NCBI GenBank assembly: GCA_021825805.1
Contig: JAKAGF010000001.1
Coordinates: forward strand, 1-38,904
Length of the DNA: 38,904 bases
Source: Nitrospirota bacterium
Lineage (GTDB): Bacteria; Nitrospirota; Thermodesulfovibrionia; Thermodesulfovibrionales; UBA6898
Direction: 5' to 3'
The position numbers were made by a program, and so were the translations under genes. Of this stretch, positions 3,311 through 21,407 are shown piece after piece. The first letter of the stretch is position 1. Each line of letters opens with the position of its first letter. The notes under the pieces are model-generated. The model made no database searches, was not told where the DNA came from, and worked only from the letters and a program-made list of their open reading frames with translations.

Positions 3311-6166
3311 ATAAAAAGTCTCAAAAGAAAGTTTTTCTGGATCCTCCTCGCCGGGGTTGTCTTCTTCTTCGGTATTCTGACCTTTCTGATACTTCATCGG
3401 GAAAAGAGGCTGATCCTCAACATCTACAAGCAGGAAGCCCTCATGACAGTTAACGTGATAGCCGACCAAATCATCCACCTGATGGCCGAGAAGAACCCCG
3501 GGGCAGCCGCCGAGAAGATCGACGCATACAACAAGGCAGGCAAAATAAAGATAGGCGTCGCAGGGCCGGACGGTCTGCCCGCGTTTCATACCGATATCGT
3601 CATCCCTGCTGCCTATTTCAAGGCGCATGAGGAGCGTTTTGTCGCATCAGACAGCGACTATGTCTTTTTCAAGCCTCTTGCCAATACGAAGAACTGCCAC
3701 GGATGTCACAGCGCCGCAGACAAAACCCGGGGTATGCTCGCCATCAAGGGCTCCCTGGCACAGGCCGACAAAGAGGTCGCCGATACCGCCAAGCGGCTAC
3801 TGATCCTTGCCGTCATCATCGGCCTGGCCAGCGAGGTCTTTCTCCTGGTGGTTTTGCGAAAAACAATCCTGAAGCCTGTTGAACAGCTCAACGAAGGGGC
3901 TGCGCTCCTGCAGGCAGGCAGGCTTGACCACCGAATACCCATCACCGGCGATGATGAGATCGGGTCCCTGGCAGCCTGTTTTAACAGGATGACGGAGAGC
4001 ATTCAGAAGTCCCACGTTCATCTGGAAGACGCCATGCGCCAGCGGACTACGGAACTCCGGGTGATAGCGGAACTTTCAATGAAAGTATTCAAGGGCAACC
4101 TCAGCGCAAACGCCATCATTGAGCAGTTTCTCGCCTCCATAACAGGAAGTTTCGGGTTCGGCTACGCTGCCCTCTGTCTCGTGGATAAAGAGACAGGGCT
4201 CCTGTCCCAGGAATTCAGCAAGGGGATAAGCCAGGGGTTCTGTTCCATGGAGGTATCCATGGCCAGCGAGCACATCCTCACCAGGACGATACGGGAGGCA
4301 AGGGCGGTCATCAGATCAGCCGGAGACATCGGCATACCCGATGTCTTTACGAACGTGGCTATCGTTCCCCTTCTTTCCCACCAGCGGCGGCGCTGCAGGG
4401 AGATCAACCTCTGCGCCCACGAGGATTGTCCTGCCCATGCTAATGAAGACGACCGATGCTGGCTCATCAGCGGCACGCTCTGCAGAAGCCCCCAGGCGGT
4501 TGCAGGGAAGGAGAAAATCTACGGCTGCCTCCACTGCGATGTCTTCCCGGTCCTCGGGGTCCTCATTGCGGGCCGAAAGGATGAGGTCCCGGACTCCTCC
4601 CTGCACTCACTCGAGATCATCGGATCAGAGATCGCCTCAGCCATCGAGAACCATCGGTTTATCGACGCCAAGAAAAACGACATAGCCAAGCTGATCAGGC
4701 TCCATGACATATCAGTCGAATCCCTGCAGAACCCGGGGAAGACGCTGACAACGTCGATCGTTTCGTCGGTAATGGCTTTTTCGAATGTCGACGCGGCTAT
4801 GCTCCTGCTTGCGGAAGACAACAGCACGCTGCGTCTCGCTGACGCCTCGGGCATTGACACGGACGGCCTTCCCTCCATTATCCCGTCCGCCGATTCCTTC
4901 GTCTGGACAGCCATCAGGGAGGACCGTCCCGTGGAGACCCTAAAGATGGCCGAGTTGTCCTGTTTCGAGGAGATCATCACACGCGAAAGTTTCCTCTACG
5001 CCGCCTCCGTGCCCCTTCGGTTCAAGGAAACGGTCTTCGGCTGCCTCGCCCTTTTCAGGAGGCGGGACTTCTTCATGACCGACTCTGAAAAGGCGGTTAC
5101 GCTGCTCTTCGCAAGCCAGGCGTCTGCTGCCCTCAATACGTCGAGGCTCTTTTCTTCGGTAAAGGCTGAACAGGAATTCTCCGACGCCATCTTCAATTGC
5201 GCGGCAAGCGGCATCATGGTCCTTGACCGCGAGGGGCGGATTCTCAAGATCAACGGCATGGGCGCGGAGATACTGCGCATCGACGCGATAGTCGCCCCTG
5301 GCTGGAAGATCACGGACCTGTTCCCGGAGCTTGAGGACGTACTCCTGTTCGGTCTCGGCATCGGCAGGGAGGTGAATATCTCCTGCCCCGACGGAACTAC
5401 GATACCCATCGGTTTCTCCAACTCCCCCCTCTTCGACGCGCCTGACGGAAAAATGGGGATCATCGTACTGTTCCGCGACCTCACCGAAATAAAAAAGCTG
5501 CAGGAGGAATTGAGAAGAAAGGAGCATTTCGAGGCGATGGGCATGGTCCTCTCCGGGGTGGCGCACGAGATAAGAAACCCGCTCTTCGGCATCTCCTCCA
5601 TCGGGCAGATCCTTGACCGGGAGATCGACATCCCCCAGTACAAGTCCCTTATCCAGGCGATGCTCAAGGAAACAGAACGGATGAAGCGGCTGCTGGAGGA
5701 GCTCCTCCTCTACACGCGGCCCGCGCGTCTTGATATCAAAGAGGTGGACCTCGGCAATCTCTTCGAGGATATGCGCCATTTTGTCAGCGGCAAGAGGGAC
5801 GACATCACCCTCACCGTTAAGATGCCCCCGCGTCTCGCTGTTTCCGCTGACAAAGACAAGCTAACCCAGGTCTTTCTGAACCTCCTGAACAACGCCATCG
5901 ACGCGGCGCGTCACGCCATCACCCTCTCCGCCTGGAAGCAGGGGAACAATGTGCGAGTGGAGATCGCGGACGACGGGACAGGCATACCCGAGGAAAATCT
6001 GCAGCGCATATTCGATCCCTTTTTCACGACAAAAAAGGGAGGGACGGGCCTCGGGCTCCCGATCTGCAGAAAGATCATCGAAGATCACGGCGGCGCCATC
6101 GAGGTCCGCAGCAACGCCGGCAGGGGGACTACGGTGATCGTGATCTGTGCGGCGCCGGAGGCCTGA
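3311..6166 (+). CDS. Multi-sensor histidine kinase (TM - periplasmic CxxCH haem-c-type domain - TM - HAMP - GAF with Cys-rich insert - GAF - PAS - HisKA - HATPase)
   Basis: The ORF track gives 3443..6166 (907 aa). Motifs seen: NCHGCH (CxxCH) between two hydrophobic helices, a HAMP-like segment after helix LLILAVIIGLASEVFLLVVL, a PAS-like FNCAASGIMVLDREGRILKING, H-box SGVAHEIRNPLFGI, N box LLNNAIDA, and G boxes DDGTGIP and GGTGLGL. The same frame stays open back to the TAG at 3200. Upstream of M3443 it encodes a signal-anchor helix (KRKFFWILLAGVVFFFGILTFLIL) with no ATG/GTG/TTG. ATA at 3311 preceded by AGGA (3299-3302) is the best start candidate. The start coordinate is therefore uncertain (3311 or 3443). 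Confidence 0.85.
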   Translation: MKSLKRKFFWILLAGVVFFFGILTFLILHREKRLILNIYKQEALMTVNVIADQIIHLMAEKNPGAAAEKIDAYNKAGKIKIGVAGPDGLPAFHTDIVIPAAYFKAHEERFVASDSDYVFFKPLANTKNCHGCHSAADKTRGMLAIKGSLAQADKEVADTAKRLLILAVIIGLASEVFLLVVLRKTILKPVEQLNEGAALLQAGRLDHRIPITGDDEIGSLAACFNRMTESIQKSHVHLEDAMRQRTTELRVIAELSMKVFKGNLSANAIIEQFLASITGSFGFGYAALCLVDKETGLLSQEFSKGISQGFCSMEVSMASEHILTRTIREARAVIRSAGDIGIPDVFTNVAIVPLLSHQRRRCREINLCAHEDCPAHANEDDRCWLISGTLCRSPQAVAGKEKIYGCLHCDVFPVLGVLIAGRKDEVPDSSLHSLEIIGSEIASAIENHRFIDAKKNDIAKLIRLHDISVESLQNPGKTLTTSIVSSVMAFSNVDAAMLLLAEDNSTLRLADASGIDTDGLPSIIPSADSFVWTAIREDRPVETLKMAELSCFEEIITRESFLYAASVPLRFKETVFGCLALFRRRDFFMTDSEKAVTLLFASQASAALNTSRLFSSVKAEQEFSDAIFNCAASGIMVLDREGRILKINGMGAEILRIDAIVAPGWKITDLFPELEDVLLFGLGIGREVNISCPDGTTIPIGFSNSPLFDAPDGKMGIIVLFRDLTEIKKLQEELRRKEHFEAMGMVLSGVAHEIRNPLFGISSIGQILDREIDIPQYKSLIQAMLKETERMKRLLEELLLYTRPARLDIKEVDLGNLFEDMRHFVSGKRDDITLTVKMPPRLAVSADKDKLTQVFLNLLNNAIDAARHAITLSAWKQGNNVRVEIADDGTGIPEENLQRIFDPFFTTKKGGTGLGLPICRKIIEDHGGAIEVRSNAGRGTTVIVICAAPEA

Positions 6167-7186
6167 CTACGCCCTCTTCAATACCTCGCCGGCGATGGAT
6201 GTGAGCGGGAGGACCATGTCAACAACGCCTCCTTCCGCGGCAGCCCGCGGCATGCCGTAGATTGCCGACGTCGCCTCGTCCTGGGCGATGGTGAATCCGC
6301 CCTGCTCTTTGATAACTCCCATTCCACGCGCTCCGTCAGAGCCCATTCCGGTTAAAAGCACGCCTATCGAGCGGCCTCCAGCGCGCTCGCCCACGGAGCG
6401 GAACAGCACGTTGACCGAGGGCCTGTGGATCTCGTCCATCGGTTCTATGTCCAGCCGCACTTTATAGCCGCTCCCTGTCGTTCTGACGGTCATGTGAAGG
6501 CCGGCAGGGGCTATGAGGGCTGTCCCGGGCTCGACTGCGTCACCTTCTTCAGCCTCTCTGACAGCGATTGAAGACGTCGCATCCAGCCTCTTCGCCAGTG
6601 GAGCGGTAAAGCCGCGCGGCATGTGTTGAACGATTAGAAGCCCGAAGGATATCTCATGCGGGAACTTCGGAAGGATCATATGAAGCGCCATCGGACCCCC
6701 TGTGGACGCTCCCATGGCCACGATATCAACAAGACCCTTTGTCCTCCCCCGGTAAAGCTCTGCTTCCCGCGTGGCGATCCGCAGCGGCCTGCCCCCGGCT
6801 ATGGACTTCACCTTCCCTATGATCTCCTTCGCAAGATCGAAGAAGTCCATCATGCCGGTCGAAGACTTGTCCACAAAATCCATCGCCCCCATCTCAAGGG
6901 CCTTGAGCGTCAGTTCCGCCCCATCCCGCGTAAGTTGCGACAGCATGAGAACCGGGGTGGGCAACTCATCCATAATCGCCCGGAGGGTCTCTATCCCGTC
7001 CATCTCAGGCATCATCACGTCAAGGGTAATGACATCCGGCTTCAGCGTTCGGACCTTTTCCAGCGCCTCCCTGCCCGAACAGGCAAGGCCGACGAGTTCG
7101 ATATCAGGATCAGACTGAAATATCCTCTGAAGGGCCTTGCGTACAAAGGCGGAATCATCAACAGCAAGAACTCTTATTCTGCGCAT
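6167..7186 (-). CDS. cheB: Chemotaxis response regulator protein-glutamate methylesterase CheB
   Basis: It has a REC domain (RVLAVDDSAFVRKAL, DVMMPEMDG) and a methylesterase domain (GASTGGP, LTGMGSDGA, IAQDEATSAIYGMP). I moved the start to ATG 7186 (MRRIRVLAVDD). The track start at 7435 would overlap the upstream gene by ~190 nt. Confidence 0.92.
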   Translation of the reverse strand: MRRIRVLAVDDSAFVRKALQRIFQSDPDIELVGLACSGREALEKVRTLKPDVITLDVMMPEMDGIETLRAIMDELPTPVLMLSQLTRDGAELTLKALEMGAMDFVDKSSTGMMDFFDLAKEIIGKVKSIAGGRPLRIATREAELYRGRTKGLVDIVAMGASTGGPMALHMILPKFPHEISFGLLIVQHMPRGFTAPLAKRLDATSSIAVREAEEGDAVEPGTALIAPAGLHMTVRTTGSGYKVRLDIEPMDEIHRPSVNVLFRSVGERAGGRSIGVLLTGMGSDGARGMGVIKEQGGFTIAQDEATSAIYGMPRAAAEGGVVDMVLPLTSIAGEVLKRA

Positions 7187-7241: not shown

Positions 7242-8396
7242 TCACTCCCGCGGCCCGCGCCTCTCCATCTCAGCCAGCCCGAGACGAGCAGCCTGCCGCA
7301 CTTCCTCCTCGGGATCAGACTGCATCTTTGCGAGCGCGGCGCGGGCCCGAGCCATGTCCAGCGCTCCGAGAGAAAGAGCGACCTCTGTCCGCACCTCAGG
7401 ATCTTCATCTTCAGCAAACTGCAGAAGGGCCACATTCTGTCCCGTCATGCTGAGCAGCTTCGCCAGGACAACCCGGTGCGGTCCCGCCGACGCCCTGAGT
7501 TCATCCACAATGCTGCAGAGGGCCCTCCTTCCCATGCCCCACAGCCCTTCGATGGCATACTCCTGAAGCTCATCATCCTTGAGCCCGTCAATCATATAGG
7601 GGATAACCGCAAAGTCCCGCGACCAGCAGAGCGCCACGAAGGCATATTTTTTTATATCAGGGTCCGGGTTTTTGAGCATCTCGATCATCGTCGTCACGAG
7701 GCTGGCAAAATACTCCGGGTTCGGCCTGATGCGCTCCCTGCCGGCGATGGTGACAATCGCCCTGAGAGCGGCTTCCCTGAACCGCGGTTTGCGGACACAC
7801 GCGGCAAGATGCCCGATGGACTCCCGGTTGCCGGCCCGTTCGATCGCCTGAAGCGCCGGCGCATCGAGGCCCTCCCGGTCGAGACATTGGTAGAGTATAT
7901 CAAGCGCCTCCGGGCCGCCCATCTCCCCAAGGGCGTGGACAGCCGCCATGGCAACCCACGGATCATCCTGAAGCGCTTCCCAAAACACGCCCAGGGCAGC
8001 GCTGTCGCCGATCTTTCCCAGGGCCTCCACGCAGGCTGCGCGCACATTGATATCCTCGTCTGCAAAAGCGGCGATGAGGAGGGAGACGCTGCCTGTATCC
8101 CTGATTGCGCAGAGCATATTCGCCGCAAACAGCCGCACCTCCCGGTCCTCGTCCCGGATGAGCGCCTCAAGATGCGGCAGCGCCCTGGGTCCCAATGAAA
8201 CAAAGACCTCCATCGCCGCTGTGCGCGCATCGGCATTATCGTGATTCCGCACGCCCTCCGCAAGACAGGCGACATAGGAATACTCGTCATAGGACTGCAG
8301 GGCCGCGGAAGCCCGCCTCCTGGCCCACCAGTCCCGGCCCGCCAGACCCTCTATGATTTCCCGGACCCTTTCACCCGCATCCCTCATGGGTCGCAA
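7242..8396 (-). CDS. HEAT-repeat (PBS-lyase HEAT-like) protein, paralog 1
   Basis: 384-aa ORF built from repeated D-x-D/E-x-x-VR-x-x-A-x-x-ALG-x-IG units (e.g. DEDREVRLFAANMLCAI, DEDINVRAACVEALGKIG, DPEVRTEVALSLGAL, EEEVRQAARLGLAEM). It is collinear with ORF 9265..10407. The start is either TTG 8396, abutting the cheR stop, or ATG 8387. Confidence 0.8.
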   Translation of the reverse strand: MRPMRDAGERVREIIEGLAGRDWWARRRASAALQSYDEYSYVACLAEGVRNHDNADARTAAMEVFVSLGPRALPHLEALIRDEDREVRLFAANMLCAIRDTGSVSLLIAAFADEDINVRAACVEALGKIGDSAALGVFWEALQDDPWVAMAAVHALGEMGGPEALDILYQCLDREGLDAPALQAIERAGNRESIGHLAACVRKPRFREAALRAIVTIAGRERIRPNPEYFASLVTTMIEMLKNPDPDIKKYAFVALCWSRDFAVIPYMIDGLKDDELQEYAIEGLWGMGRRALCSIVDELRASAGPHRVVLAKLLSMTGQNVALLQFAEDEDPEVRTEVALSLGALDMARARAALAKMQSDPEEEVRQAARLGLAEMERRGPRE

Positions 8397-9284
8397 TCAG
8401 GTTCGCTGCTGTCCCGCATCCGCCTGCGCTTCACTGTTCTTCCGGTATACGATCACCTTCTCGCGGTACTCGGGGGTGAACAGGTTCGTCTTCTGGATGA
8501 GGCTCTCCGCCGACCCGATGAACAGGTAGCCCGTTTCCGTGAGTGCGCTGCTGAAGTTACTGACGAGCCTCTCCGTAGCCGGATCGCTCATATAGATCAG
8601 GACATTCCTGCAGAAGATGACATCCACGGGCGCAAGGCCGGCGTAGAGGCCGCTGTCCAGGATATTTGCGTGCCTGAATTCCACATTCTTCGCGTACGCC
8701 CTCTTCAACTCGTAGCGGCCGTCTTCCACGGTAAAGTATCTTTGGATTCTGCTCATGTCGCCATTGAGGCTTCTGAAGGAGTTTGCCGTATAGGTTGCGG
8801 CATGCGCCTTGCTGACCGCCGTGCGATCGATGTCAATGCCGATGATCTCCACATCCCAGTTCCAGGCGAAGAGCCCGCTTTCGTGGATGAGGATGTTAAG
8901 GGAATAGGCCTCTTCGCCGCTTGAGGAAGCGAGAGACAGAATCCTGAGTCGCTGTTCTCCGCCCTGTTTCTCCCTCTTTATGTCCTGCAGTATCTCCGCC
9001 AGGGCGTCCAGTTGTGGACGCTCGCGAAAGAAATAGGTCTCGTTGTTGGTAATGTGAGACGCGAGAATGAAGAGTTCCTCGCGCGTCGGGTCCGCGACAA
9101 TAAAGTCATAGTATTCCTTGTATGTTGAGAGTCCCAGGATGCTCAGCCGATGGGAGACCTTTGTATGGAGGGTGAGCCTCCGGTCTCCCCGCAGCAGGAT
9201 GCCGAATTCCCGCTCGATGAGATCGCGAAGGGACGAAAACTCCTCCGCGCTCATTATTGTTTTTTTATCGGGAAAGGCCGTCAT
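8397..9284 (-). CDS. cheR: Chemotaxis protein-glutamate O-methyltransferase CheR
   Basis: 295 aa. It has the CheR N-terminal helical region (EEFSSLRDLIEREFGILL), a SAM-binding region (RILSLASSSGEEAYSLNILI) and VIFCRNVLIYM. It overlaps the upstream HEAT gene by 20 nt. Confidence 0.9.
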   Translation of the reverse strand: MTAFPDKKTIMSAEEFSSLRDLIEREFGILLRGDRRLTLHTKVSHRLSILGLSTYKEYYDFIVADPTREELFILASHITNNETYFFRERPQLDALAEILQDIKREKQGGEQRLRILSLASSSGEEAYSLNILIHESGLFAWNWDVEIIGIDIDRTAVSKAHAATYTANSFRSLNGDMSRIQRYFTVEDGRYELKRAYAKNVEFRHANILDSGLYAGLAPVDVIFCRNVLIYMSDPATERLVSNFSSALTETGYLFIGSAESLIQKTNLFTPEYREKVIVYRKNSEAQADAGQQRT

Positions 9285-10407
9285 TGCCGGCGCCCCCTTT
9301 CATCAACTGCAGGGAAAGCACTGCCGCTGCCTTCACCTCGTCAACAGGGTCCGCGGACAGCTTCACGAGGAGGGCCTTGGCCTCCGGCGTATTTACAGTC
9401 CCCAGGGCAAGGGCAGCCTCGGTCCTCACCTCGGAATCCGCATCGCCGGCAAACTCCGGAAAGGCATGGACTTCACCGGTCATGGAAAGAATTTTGGCCA
9501 ATATCCCCCTCTGCCCTCCCCGGCCCCTCAGCGCCCCGATAATGTCAGGAACAGCATCCCTGCCCAGAGCCATAAGACCGTTAATGGCATGTTCCTGTAG
9601 CCCGTCATCGCCGAGCGCCGCGATCAGGCATGGCGCTGCATCCGCCTTCCCGGCCCAACTGAGGGCGATGAGAGCGGCCCTGCGGACAGCAGCGTCGGGT
9701 GACTGCACAAGGTCCTTAAGGACCGGCAGCGTCTCCGCGATAAATAAGGGGGATGGCATCACGCATTCCCTTTCCGCGATGGTCACAAGCGCCCTGAGGG
9801 CCAGCCCGCCGATCTCGCCCCGGCCCACATACTGCATGAGTTGTTCCACGGAGGCGCGGTCTCCGGCCCGTTCAAGGGCCTCGCAGGTCATGCCCCGGTA
9901 TTCCCCACGGACGAGGAACCGGTGGAGGACCGTCCGCGCCTCATCCCCTCCTATCCTGCCAAGGGCGTCGACAGCCGCCATAACAGACCATGGGGAATCC
10001 TCAAGCCTTCGGGCGAGGACGCCGACCGCCCTCGCGTCGCCCATCTTCCCGAGGGCCTCGATTGCGGCTATACGCACGTTCACATCCGTATCCTCGAGGG
10101 CCTCGATGAGGGCCGTCAGGGCGTCCTTGTCCCCGATATCTCCGATCAGATTCGCTGCAAAAATCCTGATGTCAGCATCACTGTCCGAAAGGAGTGACAC
10201 CAGGAAGGCCGTTGCCCCGGAACCCAGGGCCCTGAATACCTCCATGGCGATATTCCTCGACAGATGATCCTCACCCTTCCTGAGCCATGATTCGAGGACA
10301 GCGAGGTGCCGCTCCTCATGGCCCGCTGCAAGCTCTTCGATCTCCTTCTTCCGCGACCACCAGTCTTTCGTCCTGAGCCTGTTCAGCCTGTCCTGGTTCT
10401 CGTCCAT
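9265..10407 (-). CDS. HEAT-repeat (PBS-lyase HEAT-like) protein, paralog 2
   Basis: 380-aa ORF with the same repeat grammar (DSDADIRIFAANLIGDIG, DTDVNVRIAAIEALGKMG, DSEVRTEAALALGTV, DPVDEVKAAAVLSL) and the same N-terminal KDWW/RDWW motif as paralog 1. The ATG at 10407 is preceded by GGGGGAGGA. Confidence 0.8.
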   Translation of the reverse strand: MDENQDRLNRLRTKDWWSRKKEIEELAAGHEERHLAVLESWLRKGEDHLSRNIAMEVFRALGSGATAFLVSLLSDSDADIRIFAANLIGDIGDKDALTALIEALEDTDVNVRIAAIEALGKMGDARAVGVLARRLEDSPWSVMAAVDALGRIGGDEARTVLHRFLVRGEYRGMTCEALERAGDRASVEQLMQYVGRGEIGGLALRALVTIAERECVMPSPLFIAETLPVLKDLVQSPDAAVRRAALIALSWAGKADAAPCLIAALGDDGLQEHAINGLMALGRDAVPDIIGALRGRGGQRGILAKILSMTGEVHAFPEFAGDADSEVRTEAALALGTVNTPEAKALLVKLSADPVDEVKAAAVLSLQLMKGGAGNDGLSR

Positions 10408-10428: not shown

Positions 10429-12939
10429 CTACGCCTCTATGCCCTGAATCGCCTTGAAGGCCTCACAGGTCATGCAGTTCCTGAGCTTTGAGCGGAAATC
10501 TCCCTGCTGGCTGCCCTGGCACCACGTTCCTGCTATCTGCCAGCAGCGATGTTCCCCGACATTATATGCCGGGCATTTATGCCGGGAGCTGGTCGGACAG
10601 TTCATGATATCCCAGCACCTCTTGTTGCCGTTGGAATGTATGATAAAGGAGCTGATGGAGTATTGGAGGTTTTCTATCTGAAAGAGAGTCTCCTCCGACA
10701 TGCCCACCATGTCCTTTGACAGATTGAGGTTCTGGCTGGATATGTTGCTCATGCCCTCCATGGCCTTTACTATCGTCTCGCCGCCGAGCTTCTGTTCGGC
10801 GGTCGAGTTGGCGACCCCCTGCGTCATGGTGCTCATGATCTCCACCGCCTGGACGATCTGCCTGGCGCCGCCTACCTGTTCCTTGACCGCGGTCCCGACT
10901 TCGTGGACCAGGGTCTTCATGCGTTCAATCACCTCGCGCATCTGCCTTCCGCCGATAGCCTGCTCCCGGGTGGCGGTGTTCACTTCCTGCACCATTTTGT
11001 TCATCCTGTCGATTGACTGCCGAACGCTGCCGGCTCCCTTTGCCTGGGCCTGAGCCGCGGCCGCGACCTCATCCGACGACGTATTCATATCAACCACATA
11101 CTTCATCACCTGCTCAATGGCCGTGTTCAGTTCTCCGGCGGACTTCGCGATCCCCTGTATCACGTCGGAACTCTCCTTCATGGACGTGATGATCGACGAG
11201 AAGGCGTCCCTGCTGTTCTCCGCAAGGGTTATGCCGTCCTTGCCCTCGCGGTATGTTTCTTCGGTCGCCTTGATCGCAGTCACTGTTTCCTGCTGCACCT
11301 TCTTGATCACCCCGCCGATCTCTTTCGTCGCCTCCATGGAACGCTCCGCCAGCTTCCGTATCTCCTCCGCAACAACGGCGAAGCCCCTGCCGGCGTCACC
11401 AGCCCGCGCCGCTTCTATGGCCGCATTCAGCGCCAGAAGGTTCGTCTGGTCGGCGATCTCGTCGATCACCTCCACAATCGATCCTATCTCCTCTGAGCGT
11501 TTCCCGAGGTTCTGGATGATCTCCATCGTCTTTTCCGTTGTCTTGCCGATGTTCTGAAGGCTTTCCATACTCCGGTATATAGCCTTGCCTCCCTCCTCGG
11601 CCTCGCTGAATGCGTCCCGGCTCAGCTTGTTGGCGCCGCCGATCCTTCCCACAACCTCCTTGACGGTCCGCGTCATCTCCTCGATCGTCCCCGAGGTCTC
11701 CACTACCATGCTCTTCAGGGAATCAGCGCTCCTGGCAATCTGCTCAATGGACGACAGGAGGTTCTCAACAGTCATCGATGTGTCACTTACCGAATCGGTC
11801 ATCGACGACGTATTCCTCGCCGTCTGGTCCACGGACACCAGCATCTGTTCAATCGTCGCCGAGGTCTCCTCCACCGAAGCGGCCATGCTGTCGGCGCTCT
11901 TGCCGACCTGCGCGATGGATGCGGCCATCTCATTAATGGTCGCGGATGTTTCGTCCACGTTCGTTGCCAGCGCCTCGGCGTTTTTTGCCGCCTTGGAGAT
12001 GGAGACCGACATCTCTTCCACCGACGACGTCGTCTCATCCGTTACCGCCGCCTCCTCCTGCGCCGCCTTCGAGAGCTGGGTCGAGCCCCTGGAAACCTTG
12101 TCGGCATTCAGGGCGACATGGTACGAGGAGGCCACCGCATTCTTCACCATGCCCTGGAGGTTCTTCACCATATCGTTGAAGTAACCCGCAAGCATCCCGA
12201 CCTCATCCTTGCTCTTCATGTCCAGCTCCTGCGTCAGGTCTCCCGCGCTTATCTTCTTCGTCGTCTCGGCCAGCTTCATCAGCGGCCGGGTGATGCTCCG
12301 GCTGATAATGAGTCCGGCGGCAACGGTGAGCAGCGCCGCGACTATCAGGACCCCTGCCATCACTCGGATGGTCTGTCCGATTACCGCATGGGCCTTTCCC
12401 TCCATGGCGTCAATCCGCTTGTTGCCCTCATCAGCAAAGTCTTTTGCGGTTGTTTCGAGGCGGTGTATCTCGTCCTTGTATTCCGTTATCGCGGCATTGC
12501 CCTCCTGCGGCGTCTTTATCTTCTTTTCCTCAACCTGTCTGAAGACCTTGAGGAACCCAGCTTCATAATTAGCGCCCTCAGTCCTCATCGTCTTGACTAC
12601 CGCTTTGTCCTGCTCGGTAATCGCTGCCTTGTCTATGTCATCGAGCCGTTTCTTTAAATGGTCGAGCTGCTCGTCCCATTTCTTGCGGTACTCAGCGACC
12701 TTCTCCGGCTTTTCGATGTTCAGGAATATGTCCTTTTCGTACCGCCGCAGGCCGAGGACATTCGCGCGTGCGCGCGCGGAATGCTCCGCGATATTCCCGT
12801 CTATTTTCAGCATCCTTGTCATCTGCCTCGAAACCGTATCTACGCCCCAGTAAGCGGTGCCGCCCAGGACGAGCAGCAACAACAGCAACAGCGTGAACGC
12901 GATACCCAGCCTGACCCCTATTTTCACATTCTCAAGCAT
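10429..12939 (-). CDS. Methyl-accepting chemotaxis protein (4-helix-bundle sensor, HAMP, extra-long signalling domain, C-terminal 7-Cys module)
   Basis: The track ORF is 10429..13041. I moved the start to ATG 12939, which has AAGGAGG just upstream and is followed by TM1 ([27 protein letters not shown]). The periplasmic region is 4HB-like ([11 protein letters not shown]), followed by TM2 and HAMP. The MCP hairpin tip reads [41 protein letters not shown]. The C-terminus is [10 protein letters not shown]...NCMTCEAF. Confidence 0.93.
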
Positions 12940-12995
12940 CCTGACCTCCTTGCAAAATATCACCGAATTTCGTAATGGACCGCCGGCTCGGAATG

Positions 12996-15356
12996 TCACC
13001 CCACTCCCTGGATGACCCGATAAGCCTGACACGTCATGCAATTTTTAAGCTTCGAACGGGCATCGCCCTGCTTCAATCCCTTGCACCAGGTCCCGCTGAT
13101 GCGCCAGCAGCGGTCTTCTTCGGCATTGAAGGCCGGGCACTGCTGCCGCGAGCCCGTCGGACAGTTGAGGATGTCCCAGCAGCGGTGGCCGCCGTTCGCG
13201 CTGATCCTGAAGTTGCTCATTGTATACTGGAGGTTCTCAATCTGGAAGAGGGTGTCCTGGGCAAGATCAACCATGCCTTTTGAAAGCCTGAGGTTCTCGG
13301 TGGATATCTGGTTCATGCCTTCCATGGCCCGGGTGATATTCTCGCCGCCGTGTCGCTGCTCTGCCGTCGCGTTGGCCACTCCCTGCGTCATGGCGCTCAT
13401 CGTCTCCATCGCCTGCGCGATCTGCTTTGCCCCCCCAACCTGTTCCTTCACCGCAAGGCCTACCTCATGCACGATCGACCTCAGGCGGTGCACCATCTGA
13501 CGTATTTCATGACCGCCCTTTGACTGCTCCGCGGCGGCGATGTTCACCTCCTGGACCATGCGGTTCATCTTGTCGAGCGAACCGCGGATCGAGGCCGCGC
13601 CGTTTGCCTGCTCCTTAACGGAGACCGTCACCTCGTCGGCGGACGCGTTCATGTCCATCACATACTTCAGCGCCTGTTCAATCGCCGTGTTCAGCTCTCC
13701 GGCTGACCTGGCTATCCCCTCTATCACCTCGGAACTCTGCTTTACAGACGTAATAATCGCCGAAAAGGCGTCGCGGCTGTTTTCCGCGAGCAGGATGCCT
13801 CCCTTGCCTTCGCGGTAGGTCTCTTCCGTTGCCTTGATCGCAACCCCGGTCTCCTCCTGCACCTTCTTGATCACCCCGCCGATCTCTTTCGTCGCCTCCA
13901 TGGAACGCTCTGCCAGCTTCCGTATCTCCTCCGCAACAACCGCGAAGCCCCTGCCGGCGTCACCAGCCCGCGCCGCTTCTATGGCCGCATTCAGCGCCAG
14001 AAGGTTCGTCTGGTCGGCGATCTCGTCGATCACCTCCACGATCGATCCTATCTCCTCTGAGCGTTTCCCCAGCCCCTGGATTATCCCCATCGTTTTTTCG
14101 GTCGTCTGTCCGATATGCTGCAGGCTCTCCATGCCCCGATAGATCGCCTTGCCGCCCTCTTCAGCTTCCTGGTACGCCTCCTGCCCGAGCCGGCTCGCGC
14201 CCCCTATCCTGCCCACGACCTCCTTGACGGTCCGGGTCATCTCCTCGATAGTCGACGTCGTGTCGCCCACCATGTTCTTGAGCGAGTCGGCGCTCCGCGC
14301 TATCTGTTCGACCGACGCCAGCAGGTTCTCGACCGTCAGCGACGTTTCGCTCACAGCGTCGGTCATCTGCGCCGAGTGCTTCGCCGTCTGCTGTACCGAC
14401 GCAATCATCCCTTCGACCGTCGCCGTAGTCATCTCTACCGACGCCGCCATCTGTTCGGCGCTCACGCCCACCTGCTCGATAGAGGCGGCCATCTCGGCGA
14501 CCGTCGAGGAGGTCACCTCGACGTTCTCCGAAACCGCCTCAGCGCCCTTCGCCACCTGCCCGATAGACACTGCCATCTGTTCCATGGAGGACGTCGTCTC
14601 GTCCGTAGCGGCCGCTTCCTTCTGCGACGCAGCGGCTATGGCATTTGAGTTGTCCGAGACCCGGCCGGCAACGTCCACCACCCTGAAGGCCGACTCGAGC
14701 GTCTGGCCGACCGTGCTCCTGAAACTCCCGATCATCCTGTCGATGTCCCGGCTCAACTCGCCGATCTCGTCGCCGGCGCCGGTGTCCAGAGTGCGGGAGA
14801 GGTCGCCTGCGGCCACCTTCTCCATCCCCTGCTTGAGCCGCTGAATAGGCCGATGGGCGAGCACCCTGAAGAGGACATAGACTATCAGGGAAACCGACAG
14901 GATCGTGCCGGCGGAAAGGAGCAGGACGATGAGCTGGGACCTGCGCAGCGCCCGATTGATATTATCGGTAGTGAAGACGATCCTGGCGGCGCCGACCTGC
15001 TCGCCGCCCTGCATGATCGGACTCGCGTACTCCCTGAGCTCCACGGCCCCCTCCTTCTGCTTCAATTGCGTGAGGGGCTTTCCGTCTTTGTCGAGAATCA
15101 CCGCATGGACGATATCGGCGTCACGGGACGTGATGTCAGCCACGTAATTTTCGAGGTAGGCGAAATTATAGCTCAGGATCGGCTCGGCAGAGATACCCGC
15201 GAGAAACTTTACCAGATTGTCGCCCCTCTTGTTCAGTTCGGAAAGGAAAAGACGACGCTCGTGCATCCCTATGCTCACGATCGTCACCACCGATATCAGG
15301 GCCATCGCAAGCAGGATGCCGGAAAGAAATTTTTTCGTTAATTTCCAGTTTTTCAT
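12996..15356 (-). CDS. Methyl-accepting chemotaxis protein (small periplasmic sensor, HAMP, extra-long signalling domain, C-terminal 7-Cys module)
   Basis: 786-aa ORF. It has TM1 ([20 protein letters not shown]), a ~120-aa periplasmic domain, TM2, HAMP ([40 protein letters not shown]), the same hairpin tip as the neighbouring MCP, and the C-terminus [10 protein letters not shown]...NCMTCQAY. Confidence 0.93.
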
Positions 15357-15421: not shown

Positions 15422-16282
15422 TCAGAGAGCGCCCGCCAGTCTGGCCGCCTGGCGGAGGTGATCATAGTCCCTGTCCGACACCGGAGAAAAAGCGGTAAGC
15501 TTCGCCGACCCCAGGACTTTCTCGGTCGCGGCTTCACCATGTTTGAGCTTGAGCAGCGCGGCCCTTACCTTCTCGGCTGTTGCTTTATTCAGCTTGTTCG
15601 TCGCAAATACCGGCCAGTTGGGAAAATAGTCGGTATACGAGACGATCTTGAGCTGATTCACATCCACCTTGTCCTTCATCTTTTCGAGATCGTCCTCGCG
15701 GATGCCGCCCGCATCAGCCGATCTGTTAAAGACCGCCATCGTGACGTTGTCATGCTTTTTCGCAAAGGGGAGTTTGATGAAATCCTTGTTGACATCGAGC
15801 CCCGCCTTGCTCAGCAGGAGCATCTGAAAGATATACCCGGCCGCTGAATCCTTTTCCACAAAGATGAGCTTCTTGCCCTTCAACTGCTGGATCTTGTCGA
15901 TGCCGCTGTCCTTGCGTGCGATGATGACGCCCCTGAACTTCGTCCCGCCTTTTTTTTCAGCGGAAAGGGCGAGCGGCTCGATCGCCGCATCCTTCTTCAG
16001 CTGCACATAGATAAGCGAATTGGCAAACCCCAGTTCCACCTGCCCCGCCTTCACCATGGCCTTGAACGTGTCAAAGTCCTTGGGCACGACGAGGGTCACC
16101 TGCTCGCCCGTCTCCTTGGACAAATACTCCGCAAGGGGTCTGAACATGGCGTTGAGTTCCACCGCGCCCAGGCGCGGGAGTATCCCCAGTTTGACTTCGG
16201 CCGACGAAAGTCCCTGCGCCGCCAAGAGCACGAACACAATAATAAGAGCACGAATAAGTCTGCTTCCAACTGCGTTGATCAT
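15422..16282 (-). CDS. Periplasmic solute-binding protein, PhnD-like (phosphate/phosphonate-binding fold); no cognate ABC transporter genes nearby
   Basis: I moved the start to ATG 16282, which has AGGAG upstream. The signal peptide is MINAVGSRLIRALIIVFVLLAAQGLSSA. The mature part (KLGILP...FRPLAEYLSKETG...ELGFANSLIYV...FRGVIIARKDSGI...AAGYIF) looks like the PhnD/Phosphonate-bd family as I remember it. Confidence 0.7.
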   Translation of the reverse strand: MINAVGSRLIRALIIVFVLLAAQGLSSAEVKLGILPRLGAVELNAMFRPLAEYLSKETGEQVTLVVPKDFDTFKAMVKAGQVELGFANSLIYVQLKKDAAIEPLALSAEKKGGTKFRGVIIARKDSGIDKIQQLKGKKLIFVEKDSAAGYIFQMLLLSKAGLDVNKDFIKLPFAKKHDNVTMAVFNRSADAGGIREDDLEKMKDKVDVNQLKIVSYTDYFPNWPVFATNKLNKATAEKVRAALLKLKHGEAATEKVLGSAKLTAFSPVSDRDYDHLRQAARLAGAL

Positions 16283-16322
16283 GTGATCTCCTTTCGGGTG
16301 TGACAAAATAACGGCAGTTTCT

Positions 16323-16841
16323 TTACCCCTGTTCCACATCACTCGTCTCGAATTTTTCGCGCCGCAGAAGCTTTTCGAGATCGAGCAGAATGACAAGACG
16401 CTCCTTCAGCTTGCAGACTCCAGTCAGGTAGTCGGTGTCCACTTCGAGCACCTCCTCGGGCGGCGCCTCCACAACGCCCGCCGGGACCCGGATAACGTGC
16501 GAGACGGCATCTACAAGCAGTCCGATCACCTTGCTGCCCACCTCCGTGACGATGATCCGCGAACTCTTGCTCAGGCCGCAATCCTCCAGTTTCAGCCGCT
16601 TCCTGAGATTCAAAACAGGGAGCACCCTTCCGCGAAGGTTGATGACGCCTTCCATATAGGCCGGCGAGTTCGGCACCCTCGTTATGCCCGCAACGCGGAC
16701 GATCTCCCTGACCTGGCTGATGGGGACTCCGTATTCTTCCCCCAGGTTGAAGGTGATGATCTGGGATTCCTTTAACTCTTCCTTGTAATCGGCCAGGATC
16801 TCCTCGGCAAGCCCCGCCGCGGGCAATTTCATGTTAGACAT
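16323..16841 (-). CDS. cheW: Chemotaxis coupling protein CheW
   Basis: The CheW-like domain reads IITFNLGEEYGVPISQVREIV...VINLRGRVLPVLNLRKRL...RIIV...GLLVDAVSHV. The start is set at ATG 16841 with GGAGG 9 nt upstream. The track start (TTG 16871) is also possible. Confidence 0.9.
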   Translation of the reverse strand: MSNMKLPAAGLAEEILADYKEELKESQIITFNLGEEYGVPISQVREIVRVAGITRVPNSPAYMEGVINLRGRVLPVLNLRKRLKLEDCGLSKSSRIIVTEVGSKVIGLLVDAVSHVIRVPAGVVEAPPEEVLEVDTDYLTGVCKLKERLVILLDLEKLLRREKFETSDVEQG

Positions 16842-16874
16842 GTTCACGTCCCTCCTTATCGTTGCAGTCAAGGA

Positions 16875-18503: not shown

Positions 18504-18513
18504 GCGCCGGCTG

Positions 18514-18927
18514 CTATGCGCTACCCAGTTTTTCGAGGAACGGCGACTTCTTGATGATAACCTTCTCGATGATCTCGTAGAGCACGTGGGGCTTGAACGG
18601 TTTGACCACATAACCCCATGCCCCGAGCTTCAATGCCCTGAGGGTGTCCTCCTCCTTGCCCTCGGTGCTGATGACAATGATCGGGATCTGCCGGTAGAGA
18701 TTCTCGGCCTTGAGCTTTTCCATGAACTGCAGACCGTTCATCACCGGCATATTGATGTCGAGGAGGATAAGATTGAAATCGCTCTCCCTCGACAGGACGT
18801 CGAGGGCCTCCAGGCCGTTCATGGCGTCGACTATGCGGCAGCCGTTGTACCGGTTAAGCACGAGCCGGTACATGGAGTGTATGAGCTGAGAGTCATCAAC
18901 GATCAGCACTTTGCCTAATGTATTCAT
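18514..18927 (-). CDS. cheY: Single-domain response regulator CheY
   Basis: 137 aa. Motifs are VLIVDDSQLIH, the phospho-acceptor context LLDINMPVMNG, ISTEG and VVKPF. Confidence 0.88.
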   Translation of the reverse strand: MNTLGKVLIVDDSQLIHSMYRLVLNRYNGCRIVDAMNGLEALDVLSRESDFNLILLDINMPVMNGLQFMEKLKAENLYRQIPIIVISTEGKEEDTLRALKLGAWGYVVKPFKPHVLYEIIEKVIIKKSPFLEKLGSA

Positions 18928-18960
18928 ATTCCGCTCCTATGAGTTGCTGTCATGCAGTTT

Positions 18961-21383: not shown

Positions 21384-21407
21384 ATCTCATTTCCTTTTTT
21401 TCAAAAT

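What the first reader, a model, noticed from the sequence alone, without database searches (positions are those of the whole stretch)
7242..10407. Two paralogous HEAT-repeat proteins sandwich cheR with coupled or overlapping reading frames
ORFs 7242..8396 (384 aa) and 9265..10407 (380 aa) are collinear paralogs. They share the N-terminal [KR]DWW motif, the same order of D-x-D-x-x-VR...ALG-x-[IM]G repeats, and a shared internal block ALRA[IL]VTIA[GE]RE. cheR overlaps the upstream paralog by 20 nt. Its stop is followed immediately by TTG 8396 (or ATG 8387) of the downstream paralog. That spacing implies co-translation and probably matched stoichiometry with the methyltransferase. As I recall, the only precedent for HEAT proteins in chemosensory signalling is the Myxococcus xanthus Che7 system, where CheY7 was reported to act through the HEAT-repeat protein Cpc7. 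A duplicated pair flanking CheR is not something I know to be described. They could be pathway outputs, CheR/CheB scaffolds for pentapeptide-less receptors, or array components.
Basis: partly seen in the sequence, partly recalled or inferred. Interest (0 to 1): 0.68.

Follow-up and report, generated by a model that had tools for sequence, protein, structure and literature searches.

The report
Paired HEAT adaptor genes flanking cheR
Two related helical-repeat (HEAT) scaffold proteins are encoded on either side of the receptor methyltransferase gene cheR in a chemosensory operon of a Nitrospirota bacterium; this is a lineage-specific duplication of a widespread but barely described HEAT–CheR gene pair that also occurs as single fused proteins, which points to HEAT proteins as partners of CheR.

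Summary
On the minus strand, ORFs 9265-10407 (HEAT-A) and 7242-8396 (HEAT-B) are collinear paralogs: 42% identity over 358 aa, E 9e-90. Both are all-HEAT solenoids. cheR lies between them, overlapping HEAT-A by 20 nt and abutting HEAT-B, and cheB follows.

The HEAT-cheR-HEAT-cheB block is conserved in at least five other Nitrospirota lineages, and A and B form separate clades, so the duplication is old.

More broadly, 58 of 80 related genome loci from about eight phyla-level groups have a HEAT gene directly next to cheR, usually as one protein of about 660 aa with a 0-4 nt junction. At least three lineages encode HEAT-CheR fusion proteins. Their HEAT module aligns end to end with HEAT-A and HEAT-B.

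Best reading: these are non-enzymatic adaptor subunits of the methylation branch. They would be a split analogue of CheR-TPR, for receptors and a CheR that both lack the pentapeptide tether. They may also bind CheY, as reported for M. xanthus Cpc7. No interaction was tested.

A haloarchaeal HEAT_PBS taxis protein is published, and the Myxococcus Che8-type and a Geomonas MCP-less che cluster carry unremarked homologues. I rate this a new variant of a known kind, of moderate interest.

The parts
9265..10407 (-). HEAT-A: 380-aa all-HEAT alpha-solenoid, placed between the receptor gene and cheR
   Evidence: - ORF; Pfam HEAT_2 E 1.3e-42.
- AlphaFold2 gives pLDDT 90.4, pTM 0.81 and 22 helices. The Foldseek best hits are alphaRep, the PP2A A subunit and importins.
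- A-type orthologues at 46-78% identity sit in the same position in L001/L008, L003/L016, L004, L006, L009 and L010.
- It aligns end to end with the HEAT module of the fusion protein P0143 (32% identity, E 2e-38).
8397..9284 (-). cheR: receptor glutamate methyltransferase of the pentapeptide-independent type
   Evidence: - Pfam CheR_N plus CheR. PDB relatives are 5XLY, 1AF7 and 5FTW.
- In the beta-subdomain loop it reads RYFTVEDGRYE----LKRAY where Salmonella CheR has RYFMRGTGPHEGLVRVRQE. G188 and G190 are replaced, and a 4-residue gap covers G194-R197. The residue list comes from PMC2577667.
- It overlaps HEAT-A by 20 nt and abuts HEAT-B.
7242..8396 (-). HEAT-B: 384-aa paralog of HEAT-A (381 aa if started at ATG 8387), placed between cheR and cheB
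   Evidence: - ORF; Pfam HEAT_2 E 1.7e-41; 42% identical to HEAT-A.
- B-type orthologues at 53-87% identity sit in the same position in L001/L008, L004, L006, L009 and L010.
- B-like copies at 47-49% follow cheR in L012 and L039.
- It aligns with the HEAT module of the fusion protein P0143 at 31% identity, E 2e-42.
6167..7186 (-). cheB: REC plus methylesterase, 55 nt downstream of HEAT-B
   Evidence: Pfam Response_reg plus CheB_methylest. The start was read from the sequence. Orthologues follow HEAT-B in L001, L004, L006, L008, L009 and L010 at 63-76% identity.
10429..12939 (-). MCP2: 4HB-HAMP-MCPsignal receptor that ends in a Cys-rich two-CW domain, with no pentapeptide; its stop is 21 nt upstream of HEAT-A
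   Evidence: Pfam; NCBIfam two_CW_domain NF045718 at residues 808-866. The two-CW tail is conserved at 56-84% identity in the receptor upstream of every short-HEAT locus that has one, and is absent from long-HEAT loci. The gene model of 836 aa comes from the public contig.
12996..15356 (-). MCP1: second receptor with the same two-CW C-terminus
   Evidence: Pfam HAMP plus MCPsignal; the C-terminal sequence is.
15422..16396 (-). PhnD-type periplasmic binding protein inside the operon (the true start is probably later)
   Evidence: Pfam Phosphonate-bd E 1.1e-65.
16323..18611 (-). cheW (16323-16871) and cheA (16875-about 18530; Hpt-dimerisation-HATPase-CheW)
   Evidence: Pfam. The orthologous layout is seen in L001, L004 and L006.
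18514..19350 (-). Two single-domain receiver proteins: CheY (18514-18927) and REC (18961-19350)
   Evidence: Pfam Response_reg. They are conserved at 74-87% identity in L001, L004, L006, L010, L012, L013 and L039. In L013-L015 a short HEAT gene follows this pair directly.
19600..20922 (-). NtrC-type sigma-54 activator (REC-AAA-HTH) at the head of the cluster
   Evidence: Pfam. The position is conserved in L001, L004, L006, L012, L013 and L039.
3443..6166 (+). Convergent sensor histidine kinase (HAMP-GAF-PAS-HisKA-HATPase) with an internal two-CW-like Cys motif. It is a conserved neighbour and a possible partner of the sigma-54 regulator.
   Evidence: Translation; NCBIfam. The same neighbour occurs in L001, L004, L006 and L015, and two-CW hits fall in those genes.

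Best explanation
HEAT-A and HEAT-B are non-enzymatic alpha-solenoid adaptor subunits of the adaptation (methylation) branch of a chemosensory pathway that probably does not control flagella. They descend from a single HEAT gene that, across many phyla, sits immediately upstream of cheR and is translationally coupled to it. In a Nitrospirota lineage the protein is a short form of about 380 aa, and it duplicated so that one copy precedes cheR (A) and one lies between cheR and cheB (B).

The proposed mechanism is inferred, not shown:
- The solenoid binds CheR as a separate polypeptide. This would do what the TPR domain does in CheR-TPR enzymes such as FrzF, or what the receptor pentapeptide does in E. 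coli: it places CheR on its receptors or restricts it.
- HEAT-B does the same for CheR or CheB.
- By analogy with Cpc7-CheY7, one or both copies may also bind a phosphorylated single-domain receiver. That would couple kinase output to methylation.
For: Shown:
1. The genes are real, paralogous and under selection. They share 42% identity. The A and B clades each hold orthologues from the same six lineages. The AlphaFold2 model is a confident solenoid.
2. The operon junctions are tight here and in orthologues. A-to-cheR spacing is -20 to +12 nt. Long-HEAT-to-cheR spacing is 0 to +3 nt in 12 Nitrospirota loci, and the genes overlap by 1 nt in Geomonas.
3. The gene pair is conserved while the rest of the cluster varies. 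Of 80 genome loci, 58 have cheR adjacent (54 as HEAT then cheR), one is a fusion, and five more are cut off right after HEAT. The groups covered are Nitrospirota, Myxococcota, Geobacteraceae-type, Acidobacteriota, Planctomycetota, Chlorobiota/Bacteroidota, Schekmanbacteria and Victivallales.
4. There is gene-fusion evidence. L072 and P0121 encode a single HEAT-CheR protein. P0140, P0143 and P0148 come from three different data sources, and the P0140 cluster has 12 members. P0151 is a further case. All have HEAT at about residues 1-400 followed by CheR_N and CheR.
5. The HEAT modules of those fusions are collinear with HEAT-A and HEAT-B over their full length. In L090 and L094 the layout is cheR-[HEAT.CheR]-cheB, the mirror image of this window.
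6. The pentapeptide tether is missing on both sides. The MCPs end in a two-CW domain, and the CheR beta-subdomain lacks the Gly/Arg determinants.
7. The closest solved folds are protein-binding scaffolds (alphaRep, PP2A A subunit, importins), and no catalytic domain is present.

From the literature:
- TPR domains fused to CheR control site-specific methylation (PMC2535941) and mark ACF (alternative cellular function) pathways (PMC3447774).
- Cpc7 binds CheY7 (Darnell 2014, as cited in PMC11514114 and PMC9040617).
Against: - No interaction was tested.
- The AlphaFold2 model of the natural fusion P0143 has confident domains (pLDDT 86.6) but pTM of only 0.54 and a disordered linker. It gives no confident HEAT-CheR docking.
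- Gene adjacency and fusion show functional linkage, not which surface binds what.
- The only experimental datum for a bacterial che-cluster HEAT protein points to CheY, not CheR.
- In L013-L015 a short HEAT gene follows REC-CheY with no cheR next to it.
- One fusion (P0122) lies on a 2.33x-coverage contig with a split cheA and may be an artefact.
- Similarity to the Myxococcus HEAT protein is only local (42% over 101 aa, E 1e-15), so part of the broad 'family' could be repeat-level resemblance held together by gene context.
Confidence: 0.55

Rival explanations
1. Cpc7-type output or effector. The HEAT proteins are the targets of the two single-domain receivers (CheY and REC). They relay the signal downstream as reported for CheY7-Cpc7 in M. 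xanthus. Their position next to cheR is only operon history.
For: - Cpc7 is reported to bind CheY7 in a phosphorylation-sensitive way (Darnell 2014, cited).
- By locus-tag order MXAN_6961 lies between mcp7 (6962) and cheR7 (6960), the same slot as HEAT-A.
- This cluster has two HEAT genes and two single-domain receivers.
- L013-L015 have REC-CheY-HEAT without cheR.
- L003/L016 lacks HEAT-B and also lacks REC and the sigma-54 regulator.
- The haloarchaeal OE2401F acts at the output end of taxis signalling.
Against: - Across phyla the HEAT gene tracks cheR, with a 0-4 nt junction, and not cheY. The cheY genes sit at the cluster ends.
- There are repeated HEAT-CheR fusions but no HEAT-REC fusion among 240 listed relatives.
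- The two readings are not exclusive. CheY binding could regulate CheR through HEAT.
Confidence: 0.25
2. Structural array component or assembly factor. The solenoids bind the Cys-rich two-CW tail of the receptors. They either build a special receptor array or, like E/F-type bilin lyases (also HEAT-only proteins), help load a metal or cofactor onto its cysteines.
For: - The short 380-aa HEAT form and the two-CW receptor tail co-occur in every short-HEAT locus that has a receptor, and the tail is 56-84% conserved. Long-HEAT loci lack it.
- There are weak sub-threshold matches to NblB, CpcE and CpcF.
- HEAT-A follows the receptor gene by 21 nt.
Against: - NCBIfam scores are far below the equivalog cut-offs: 60-71 bits against 300 for NblB, and 29-42 against 330 for CpcE.
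- The HEAT-cheR pair exists widely without two-CW receptors, and in clusters with no MCP at all.
- The co-occurrence is confined to one clade and may be shared ancestry.
Confidence: 0.1
3. No specific role. The genes are generic HEAT-repeat proteins that merely share an operon, or HEAT-B is a decaying duplicate.
For: HEAT repeats are promiscuous. The profile search returned 147,307 proteins at E<=0.001, led by giant multi-repeat proteins. One lineage (L003/L016) has lost HEAT-B.
Against: - Both copies are intact. B is the better conserved of the two (87% and 53-55% identity against 78% and 46-51% for A).
- 44 columns are invariant across both clades.
- Position and coupling are conserved across phyla.
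- The hits without che context are the weak tail of the ranking.
Confidence: 0.05

Closest known systems
Cpc7 (MXAN_6961) of the Myxococcus xanthus Che7 system
   Same: It is a HEAT-only protein encoded inside a che operon. By locus-tag order it lies between the receptor gene (mcp7, 6962) and cheR7 (6960), with cheB7 (6959) next. That is the slot HEAT-A occupies here. The pathway is non-flagellar.
   Different: - It is a single gene rather than a pair. It is described as having 27 helices, which is longer than the 22 helices of HEAT-A.
- Its only reported partner is CheY7.
- Its sequence could not be retrieved here, so homology is inferred from position only.
- Che7 has a desaturase gene and no two-CW receptor (own knowledge for the desaturase).
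Unannotated HEAT gene of the Myxococcus Che8-type cluster and of an MCP-less Geomonas che cluster that fits the description of the Geobacter 'beta-group'
   Same: A HEAT protein lies immediately upstream of cheR-cheB. The layout in Myxococcus sp. CA056 is CheY-CheA-CheW-CheW-[129 aa]-HEAT658-CheR-CheB-CheY, which matches the gene sizes of MXAN_4759-4751. Geomonas has HEAT658-CheR-CheB-GAF-REC in a cluster with no MCP. Sequence similarity to HEAT-A is detectable.
   Different: - The protein is one long form of about 660 aa. HEAT-A and HEAT-B correspond to its N-terminal 390 aa or so.
- These clusters carry no MCP in the operon and have a conserved coiled-coil/GAF gene after cheB.
- Similarity to the Myxococcus protein is only local.
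- The published cluster descriptions do not mention HEAT, and I did not check the Geobacter beta-group clusters themselves.
Natural HEAT-CheR fusion proteins (P0121/L072, P0140, P0143, P0148, P0151; uncharacterised)
   Same: Their HEAT module of about 380-400 aa is collinear with HEAT-A and HEAT-B over the full length (31-32% identity, E 2e-38 and 2e-42). It is followed by CheR_N and CheR. HEAT-A plus CheR is the split form of this architecture.
   Different: They are one polypeptide with a linker of about 40 aa. In L090 and L094 the fusion is preceded by a separate cheR rather than followed by a second HEAT gene. There are no experimental data.
CheR-TPR methyltransferases (FrzF, WspC)
   Same: An alpha-helical repeat module is attached to CheR in non-flagellar (ACF) pathways. 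In FrzF the repeats restrict which receptor glutamates are methylated. This is the closest functional analogue for 'repeat module plus CheR'.
   Different: The repeats are TPR rather than HEAT. They are short (2-3 repeats), fused at the C-terminus of CheR, and not a separate gene. There is no sequence relationship.
OE2401F, the HEAT_PBS protein of the Halobacterium salinarum che/fla region
   Same: It is a HEAT-only protein encoded with che genes, and it is essential for taxis. It binds a receptor-modifying enzyme (CheD) and CheF1.
   Different: It is archaeal. It always lies adjacent to a DUF439/CheF gene and not to cheR, and it acts between CheY and the archaellum switch.
E/F-type bilin lyases and NblB (PBS lyase HEAT-like repeat proteins)
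   Same: They share the repeat type, and several public records name relatives 'PBS lyase'.
   Different: Scores fall far below the family cut-offs. The context is Nitrospirota with no phycobiliprotein genes. The window proteins are not members.

Membership tests
HEAT / HEAT_PBS repeat alpha-solenoids (Pfam clan) | Tandem helix-turn-helix repeats of about 30 residues that match HEAT-type profiles above the curated cut-off | tested here: met
   HEAT_2 scores 140.8 and 144.4 bits against a cut-off of 27.7. HEAT and HEAT_PBS are also above cut-off.
HEAT / HEAT_PBS repeat alpha-solenoids (Pfam clan) | All-helical solenoid fold with no other domain | tested here: met
   AlphaFold2 gives pLDDT 90.4, pTM 0.81 and 22 helices. 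The top Foldseek hits are alphaRep, the PP2A A subunit and importin/armadillo proteins.
Che-cluster HEAT proteins of the Cpc7 type | HEAT-only protein encoded inside a che operon directly upstream of cheR | tested here: met
   Window layout. The Che7 gene order comes from the locus tags in PMC3945109.
Che-cluster HEAT proteins of the Cpc7 type | Sequence homology to Cpc7 (MXAN_6961) itself | not testable with these tools
   The Darnell 2014 paper is not held. Cpc7 did not appear among the named hits of the three protein searches. Only the Che8-type Myxococcus paralogue was reached, and it gives a local match (E 1e-15).
Che-cluster HEAT proteins of the Cpc7 type | Direct, phosphorylation-sensitive binding to the cluster's single-domain CheY | not testable with these tools
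   This needs biochemistry or a multimer prediction. Only monomer AlphaFold2 is available.
HEAT-CheR module (adjacent pair or fusion) | Immediate, translationally coupled adjacency of HEAT and cheR, conserved across lineages | tested here: met
   - Here the junctions are a 20-nt overlap and a 0-nt gap.
- A-type orthologues show -20 to +12 nt, and long-type loci show 0 to +3 nt.
- 58 of 80 loci have the pair adjacent.
HEAT-CheR module (adjacent pair or fusion) | Full-length collinear homology of the free HEAT protein to the HEAT part of fused HEAT-CheR proteins | tested here: met
   HEAT-A residues 1-380 align with P0143 residues 1-361 (32% identity, E 2e-38). HEAT-B gives 31% identity, E 2e-42.
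HEAT-CheR module (adjacent pair or fusion) | Physical HEAT-CheR contact | tested here: inconclusive
   The AlphaFold2 model of the fusion P0143 has confident domains but pTM 0.54 and a low-confidence linker at residues 385-389. No PAE or multimer output is available.
CheR-TPR (FrzF/WspC) | TPR repeats fused to the C-terminus of CheR in one polypeptide | tested here: not met
   CheR here is 295 aa with only CheR_N and CheR domains. The repeat proteins are separate genes and are HEAT, not TPR. This is an analogy only.
Pentapeptide-tethered CheR system (E. coli / Salmonella type) | Receptor C-terminal NWETF-like pentapeptide, plus CheR beta-subdomain residues G188, G190, G194 and R197 | tested here: not met
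   The MCPs end in ...[12 protein letters not shown] and ...[11 protein letters not shown] after a two-CW domain. CheR has RYFTVEDGRYE----LKRAY against the Salmonella RYFMRGTGPHEGLVRVRQE.
E/F-type phycobilin lyases / NblB | Score above the NCBIfam equivalog cut-off, and a phycobiliprotein context | tested here: not met
   NblB scores 60 and 71 bits against a cut-off of 300. CpcE scores 29 and 42 against 330. CpcF scores 37 and 32 against 220. The neighbours are che and housekeeping genes.
Haloarchaeal OE2401F-type HEAT_PBS taxis protein | Adjacency to a DUF439/CheF gene in an archaeal che/fla region | tested here: not met
   No DUF439 appears in the window's Pfam scans. The cluster is bacterial. 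The feature is taken from PMC2666748.

The most novel reading that the evidence does not exclude
HEAT solenoids may be a widespread, so far unrecognised class of CheR partner subunits, either as a separate gene or fused. They would replace the receptor pentapeptide tether in non-flagellar chemosensory systems. Because they can also bind phosphorylated CheY-type receivers (as Cpc7 does), they would give the methylation side a phospho-feedback input comparable to the REC domain of CheB.

In this Nitrospirota lineage the subunit duplicated and specialised. HEAT-A would serve CheR. HEAT-B would serve CheB or the second receiver. Both might dock on the conserved Cys-rich two-CW tail of the receptors.
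Probability: 0.25. Interest if true: 0.72.

Novelty: new variant of a known kind. Interest (0 to 1): 0.5.

Why it matters
How CheR and CheB find pentapeptide-less receptors is still poorly understood. Such receptors are the great majority, especially in the many non-flagellar 'alternative function' chemosensory pathways.

A conserved, translationally coupled and sometimes fused HEAT-CheR pair offers a concrete candidate for an adaptor or regulator of methylation. It occurs in Nitrospirota, Myxococcota, Geobacteraceae and several other phyla.

It also reframes the one studied bacterial example (Cpc7, seen as a CheY target) and gives a first functional handle on the M. xanthus Che8 cluster, and possibly on the Geobacter beta-group clusters if they are laid out like the Geomonas one.

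The duplicated pair around cheR is a natural experiment. The two paralogs sit next to different enzymes, so they are well suited to asking which partner each binds. If HEAT proteins prove to be only CheY targets, the finding reduces to a lineage-specific duplication of a known accessory gene.

Tried and rejected
1. Retrieving Cpc7. The Darnell 2014 paper is not held by DOI or PMC id. A full-text search for 'Cpc7' gave only a review mention. A protein search seeded with a Myxococcaceae HEAT protein reached the Che8-type paralogue, not Cpc7. Cpc7 homology therefore remains untested.

2. Exhaustive profile search against 1.84 billion representatives. It was swamped by giant multi-repeat HEAT proteins: 147,307 hits, with the top hits 1,200-8,000 aa long. 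It cannot size the family. Only about a dozen short full-length representatives stand out. The 631-797-aa hits I examined are simply longer HEAT proteins, not HEAT-HEAT or HEAT-CheR fusions.

3. AlphaFold2 on a natural fusion (P0143), used as a surrogate for a complex. The domains are confident, but pTM is 0.54 and the linker is disordered, so it is uninformative about docking.

4. PBS-lyase or NblB identity. Rejected on scores and context.

5. Clade-specific residues that might reveal different partners for A and B. Only one column is fixed differently (D79 versus E86). Both proteins are acidic with a pI of about 5, so there is no signal.

6. Desaturase test for Che7-likeness of the long-HEAT clusters. 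The gene after cheB is a coiled-coil/GAF protein, not a desaturase.

7. Promoter and terminator scan, and tandem-repeat scan. Nothing lies inside the HEAT-cheR-HEAT block, and counts are near shuffle expectation.

8. Literature on the Geobacter che clusters, CheR-TPR and two-CW. None mentions HEAT next to cheR, and nothing is published on two-CW in the searchable library.

9. My first CheB query was one base out of frame. I redid it correctly.

10. The fusion P0122 is discounted as a possible assembly artefact.

Full report
**What is in the window**

All genes of interest lie on the minus strand and form one tightly packed chemosensory cluster. In order of transcription:

| Gene | Coordinates | Notes |
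|---|---|---|
| NtrC-type sigma-54 activator | 19600-20922 | REC-AAA-HTH |
| REC | 18961-19350 | single-domain receiver |
| CheY | 18514-18927 | single-domain receiver |
| cheA | 16875-about 18530 | |
| cheW | 16323-16871 | |
| periplasmic binding protein | 15422-16396 | PhnD type |
| MCP1 | 12996-15356 | receptor |
| MCP2 | 10429-12939 | receptor |
| HEAT-A | 9265-10407 | |
| cheR | 8397-9284 | |
| HEAT-B | 7242-8396 | |
| cheB | 6167-7186 | |

A sensor kinase (3443-6166, plus strand) converges on the end of the cluster. The rest of the window is housekeeping: glyA, nrdR, rpoD, dnaG, lptFG and uvrD. No flagellar or pilus genes are present. The identical sequence occurs in a public metagenome-assembled genome (GCA_027340985.1). 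All close relatives are Nitrospirota MAGs.

- HEAT-A and HEAT-B share 42% identity over 358 collinear residues with one gap (E 9e-90).
- Both are HEAT-only proteins (Pfam HEAT_2, E about 1e-42).
- HEAT-A is predicted with high confidence as a 22-helix solenoid (pLDDT 90.4, pTM 0.81). Its nearest solved folds are generic protein-binding scaffolds: alphaRep, the PP2A A subunit and importins.
- The quoted motifs are present.
- cheR starts 20 nt inside HEAT-A, behind a GGGGG Shine-Dalgarno-like run.
- The cheR TGA is followed at once by a TTG, with an ATG 9 nt further on. That ATG is the start chosen by a public annotation.
- The MCP2-to-HEAT-A gap is 21 nt, and the HEAT-B-to-cheB gap is 55 nt.
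- No promoter-like or terminator-like site falls inside the block.

**The triplet is conserved, and the duplication is old**

HEAT-cheR-HEAT-cheB recurs in L001/L008, L004, L006, L009 and L010. In those loci A is 47-78% identical and B is 53-87% identical to the window copies.

In a neighbour-joining tree the A copies and the B copies form separate clades, each holding one copy per genome. Bootstrap support is 100/100 for A and 100/100 for B plus B-like. The N-terminal parts of long HEAT proteins serve as outgroup.

B is the better conserved copy. Some lineages differ:
- Nitrospirae RBG_13_39_12 (L003/L016) has only A-cheR-cheB. It also lacks the REC and sigma-54 genes at that place.
- L012 and L039 have sigma54-REC-CheY-cheR-B-like, with a 4-nt cheR/HEAT overlap.
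- L013-L015 have REC-CheY-HEAT with no cheR alongside.

**The pair is a special case of a much wider HEAT-cheR module**

I scanned one genome per species with a family-derived pattern. Of the 80 best loci:
- 58 have cheR immediately adjacent to the HEAT gene, 54 of them as HEAT then cheR;
- one is a fusion;
- five more end at the contig edge right after CheA-CheW-HEAT;
- 13 have no che gene at all, and they sit among the weaker hits of the ranking.

The linked loci come from Nitrospirota, Myxococcota, 'Deltaproteobacteria', Acidobacteriota, Planctomycetota, Chlorobiota/Bacteroidota/Kapaibacteria, Schekmanbacteria and Victivallales.

In most of them the HEAT protein is a single long form of about 660 aa. 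HEAT-A and HEAT-B each align end to end with its N-terminal 390 aa or so. In twelve Nitrospirota loci the gap between the long HEAT gene and the cheR start is 0 to +3 nt. In the cultured Geomonas diazotrophica the two genes overlap by one base.

The surrounding genes vary while the pair persists. The variable features are the presence of an MCP, the number of cheW genes, the positions of cheY, and a coiled-coil/GAF gene after cheB.

**Fusion proteins**

A Polyangia MAG encodes one 674-aa protein with a 400-aa HEAT module followed by CheR_N and CheR. A 93%-identical copy was assembled independently elsewhere (P0121).

Further fusion clusters exist: P0140 (12 member sequences), P0143 and P0148, which come from three different data sources, and P0151. 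All have the same N-to-C architecture.

The HEAT module of P0143 aligns with the whole of HEAT-A (32% identity, E 2e-38) and of HEAT-B (31% identity, E 2e-42). HEAT-A plus CheR is therefore the split form of these enzymes.

In L090 and L094 the layout is cheR-[HEAT.CheR]-cheB. There the HEAT module is flanked by CheR on both sides, the mirror image of this window. One further fusion (P0122) lies on a low-coverage contig with a broken cheA, and I discount it.

**What this suggests mechanistically**

The receptors end in a Cys-rich two-CW domain rather than a CheR-binding pentapeptide. CheR lacks the beta-subdomain glycines and arginine that bind the pentapeptide in Salmonella CheR (residue list from PMC2577667). 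Some other way of bringing CheR to its substrate, or of regulating it, is therefore needed.

A non-catalytic solenoid that is co-translated with CheR across phyla, and sometimes fused to it, is a strong candidate. The nearest functional precedent is the TPR module of CheR-TPR enzymes. That module marks non-flagellar pathways (PMC3447774). In FrzF it restricts which glutamates are methylated (PMC2535941).

The steps shown here are paralogy, conservation, coupling, fusion and the absence of the pentapeptide system. The binding itself, and which partner each paralog prefers, are inference. An AlphaFold2 model of a natural fusion did not fix the two domains relative to each other (pTM 0.54), so structural support is lacking.

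**The CheY alternative**

The only experimentally studied bacterial relative by context is Cpc7 of M. xanthus Che7. It is reported to bind CheY7 (cited; the primary paper is not held).

The locus tags in PMC3945109 place MXAN_6961 between mcp7 and cheR7, with cheB7 next. That is exactly the HEAT-A slot. I could not obtain the Cpc7 sequence, so homology is untested.

Three observations keep a CheY/REC link alive:
- two receivers accompany two HEAT genes here;
- L013-L015 have REC-CheY-HEAT;
- L003 has lost REC and HEAT-B together.

The two models are compatible. A HEAT subunit that binds both CheR and CheY~P would feed kinase output back onto methylation.

**Other precedents**

- The haloarchaeal HEAT_PBS protein OE2401F is essential for taxis and binds CheD and CheF1 (PMC2666748).
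- A Myxococcus locus matches the gene sizes and order of M. xanthus Che8: CheY124, CheA, CheW188, CheW174, a 129-aa gene, HEAT658, CheR293, CheB345, CheY126. Che8, whose function is unknown, therefore also carries this HEAT gene.
- The MCP-less Geomonas cluster fits the published description of the Geobacter 'beta-group' clusters. That paper does not mention HEAT, and I did not examine the beta-group clusters themselves.
- I found no paper in the searchable library that describes a general HEAT-cheR linkage or HEAT-CheR fusions. Subscription literature is not covered, so this absence is weak evidence.

**Verdict**

The finding is real, conserved and more than chance. It is best filed as a new variant (a duplicated, short-form pair flanking cheR) of a known kind (HEAT accessory proteins of chemosensory clusters).

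The broader and more useful result is that HEAT and CheR form a conserved, sometimes fused, module. Interest is moderate (0.5). A specialist would not be astonished, but the result gives a testable candidate for how pentapeptide-independent CheR enzymes are targeted or regulated.

Noticed in passing
window 10429-10650 and 12996-13220 (minus strand; the MCP C-termini) and 3443-6166 (plus strand; HK residues about 325-375): Both receptors end in a Cys-rich 'two-CW' domain (NCBIfam NF045718; motif CWDI.NCP...CPA...CW.I.GTWC...C..C). The convergent histidine kinase carries a similar motif internally. The receptor tail is 56-84% conserved in every short-HEAT locus that has a receptor, and it is absent from long-HEAT loci. 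Small stand-alone two-CW ORFs also occur (L006 7241-7402, L011, L017). I found no literature on this domain.
   Followed up: partly
window 7242-9284 (minus strand); also L001 11124-13169: cheR and HEAT-B are contiguous in the same reading frame, separated only by a TGA (…QQRT*LRPMRD…). Read-through or loss of one codon would give a CheR-HEAT fusion in the opposite order to the natural HEAT-CheR fusions. The arrangement holds in the 78%-identity relative. L004 is also in frame but has a 24-nt spacer, and L006 is not in frame.
   Followed up: partly
window 20919-22646; L004 and L006 837-2762; L088 1-1266; L095 211-3410: glyA (SHMT) and nrdR lie directly upstream of the che cluster here and in other Nitrospirota. 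In Myxococcus the same glyA-nrdR pair lies upstream of the Che8-type HEAT cluster, with rib genes, nusB and an M17_N gene in between. This could be an old shared location or a coincidence.
   Followed up: no
L090 299-4364; L094 229-5267: Clusters with the HEAT-CheR fusion carry extra stand-alone cheR genes: cheR-[HEAT.CheR]-cheB, and in L094 a third cheR and then an MCP. That makes two or three CheR catalytic domains per cluster.
   Followed up: partly
L020 10226-11050, L022, L054, L055, L093 11938-12756, L095 12605-13504: Long-HEAT clusters in Nitrospirota, Myxococcota and Geomonas always carry a conserved protein of about 275 aa (coiled coil plus GAF; motif NNLANLYVASYQLHSTLD) between cheB and a terminal cheY. 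The window's cluster has no such gene.
   Followed up: partly
window 10429-15356 (minus strand): The cytoplasmic part of both receptors, from HAMP to the two-CW domain, is about 500 aa and is rich in ETSxTIEEM-like periodic segments. That seems longer than usual chemoreceptor signalling domains. The heptad class was not determined.
   Followed up: no
window 15422-16396 (minus strand); L001 3693-4460; L003 5057-6193: A periplasmic solute-binding protein gene sits inside the che operon next to the receptors, but its family differs between relatives: PhnD-type here, PBP_like_2 in L001, Peripla_BP_6 in L003. This suggests swappable indirect ligand sensing.
   Followed up: no
L095 4610-6823 and 9001-11427: The 808-aa HEAT-CheR 'fusion' P0122 lies on a 2.33x-coverage contig in which cheA is split into two ORFs. 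This particular fusion may be an assembly or frameshift artefact.
   Followed up: yes
L088 8615-9004: In the Myxococcus Che8-type cluster a 129-aa ORF with no Pfam match sits between cheW and the HEAT gene, overlapping it by 4 nt. By numbering it would be MXAN_4755.
   Followed up: no
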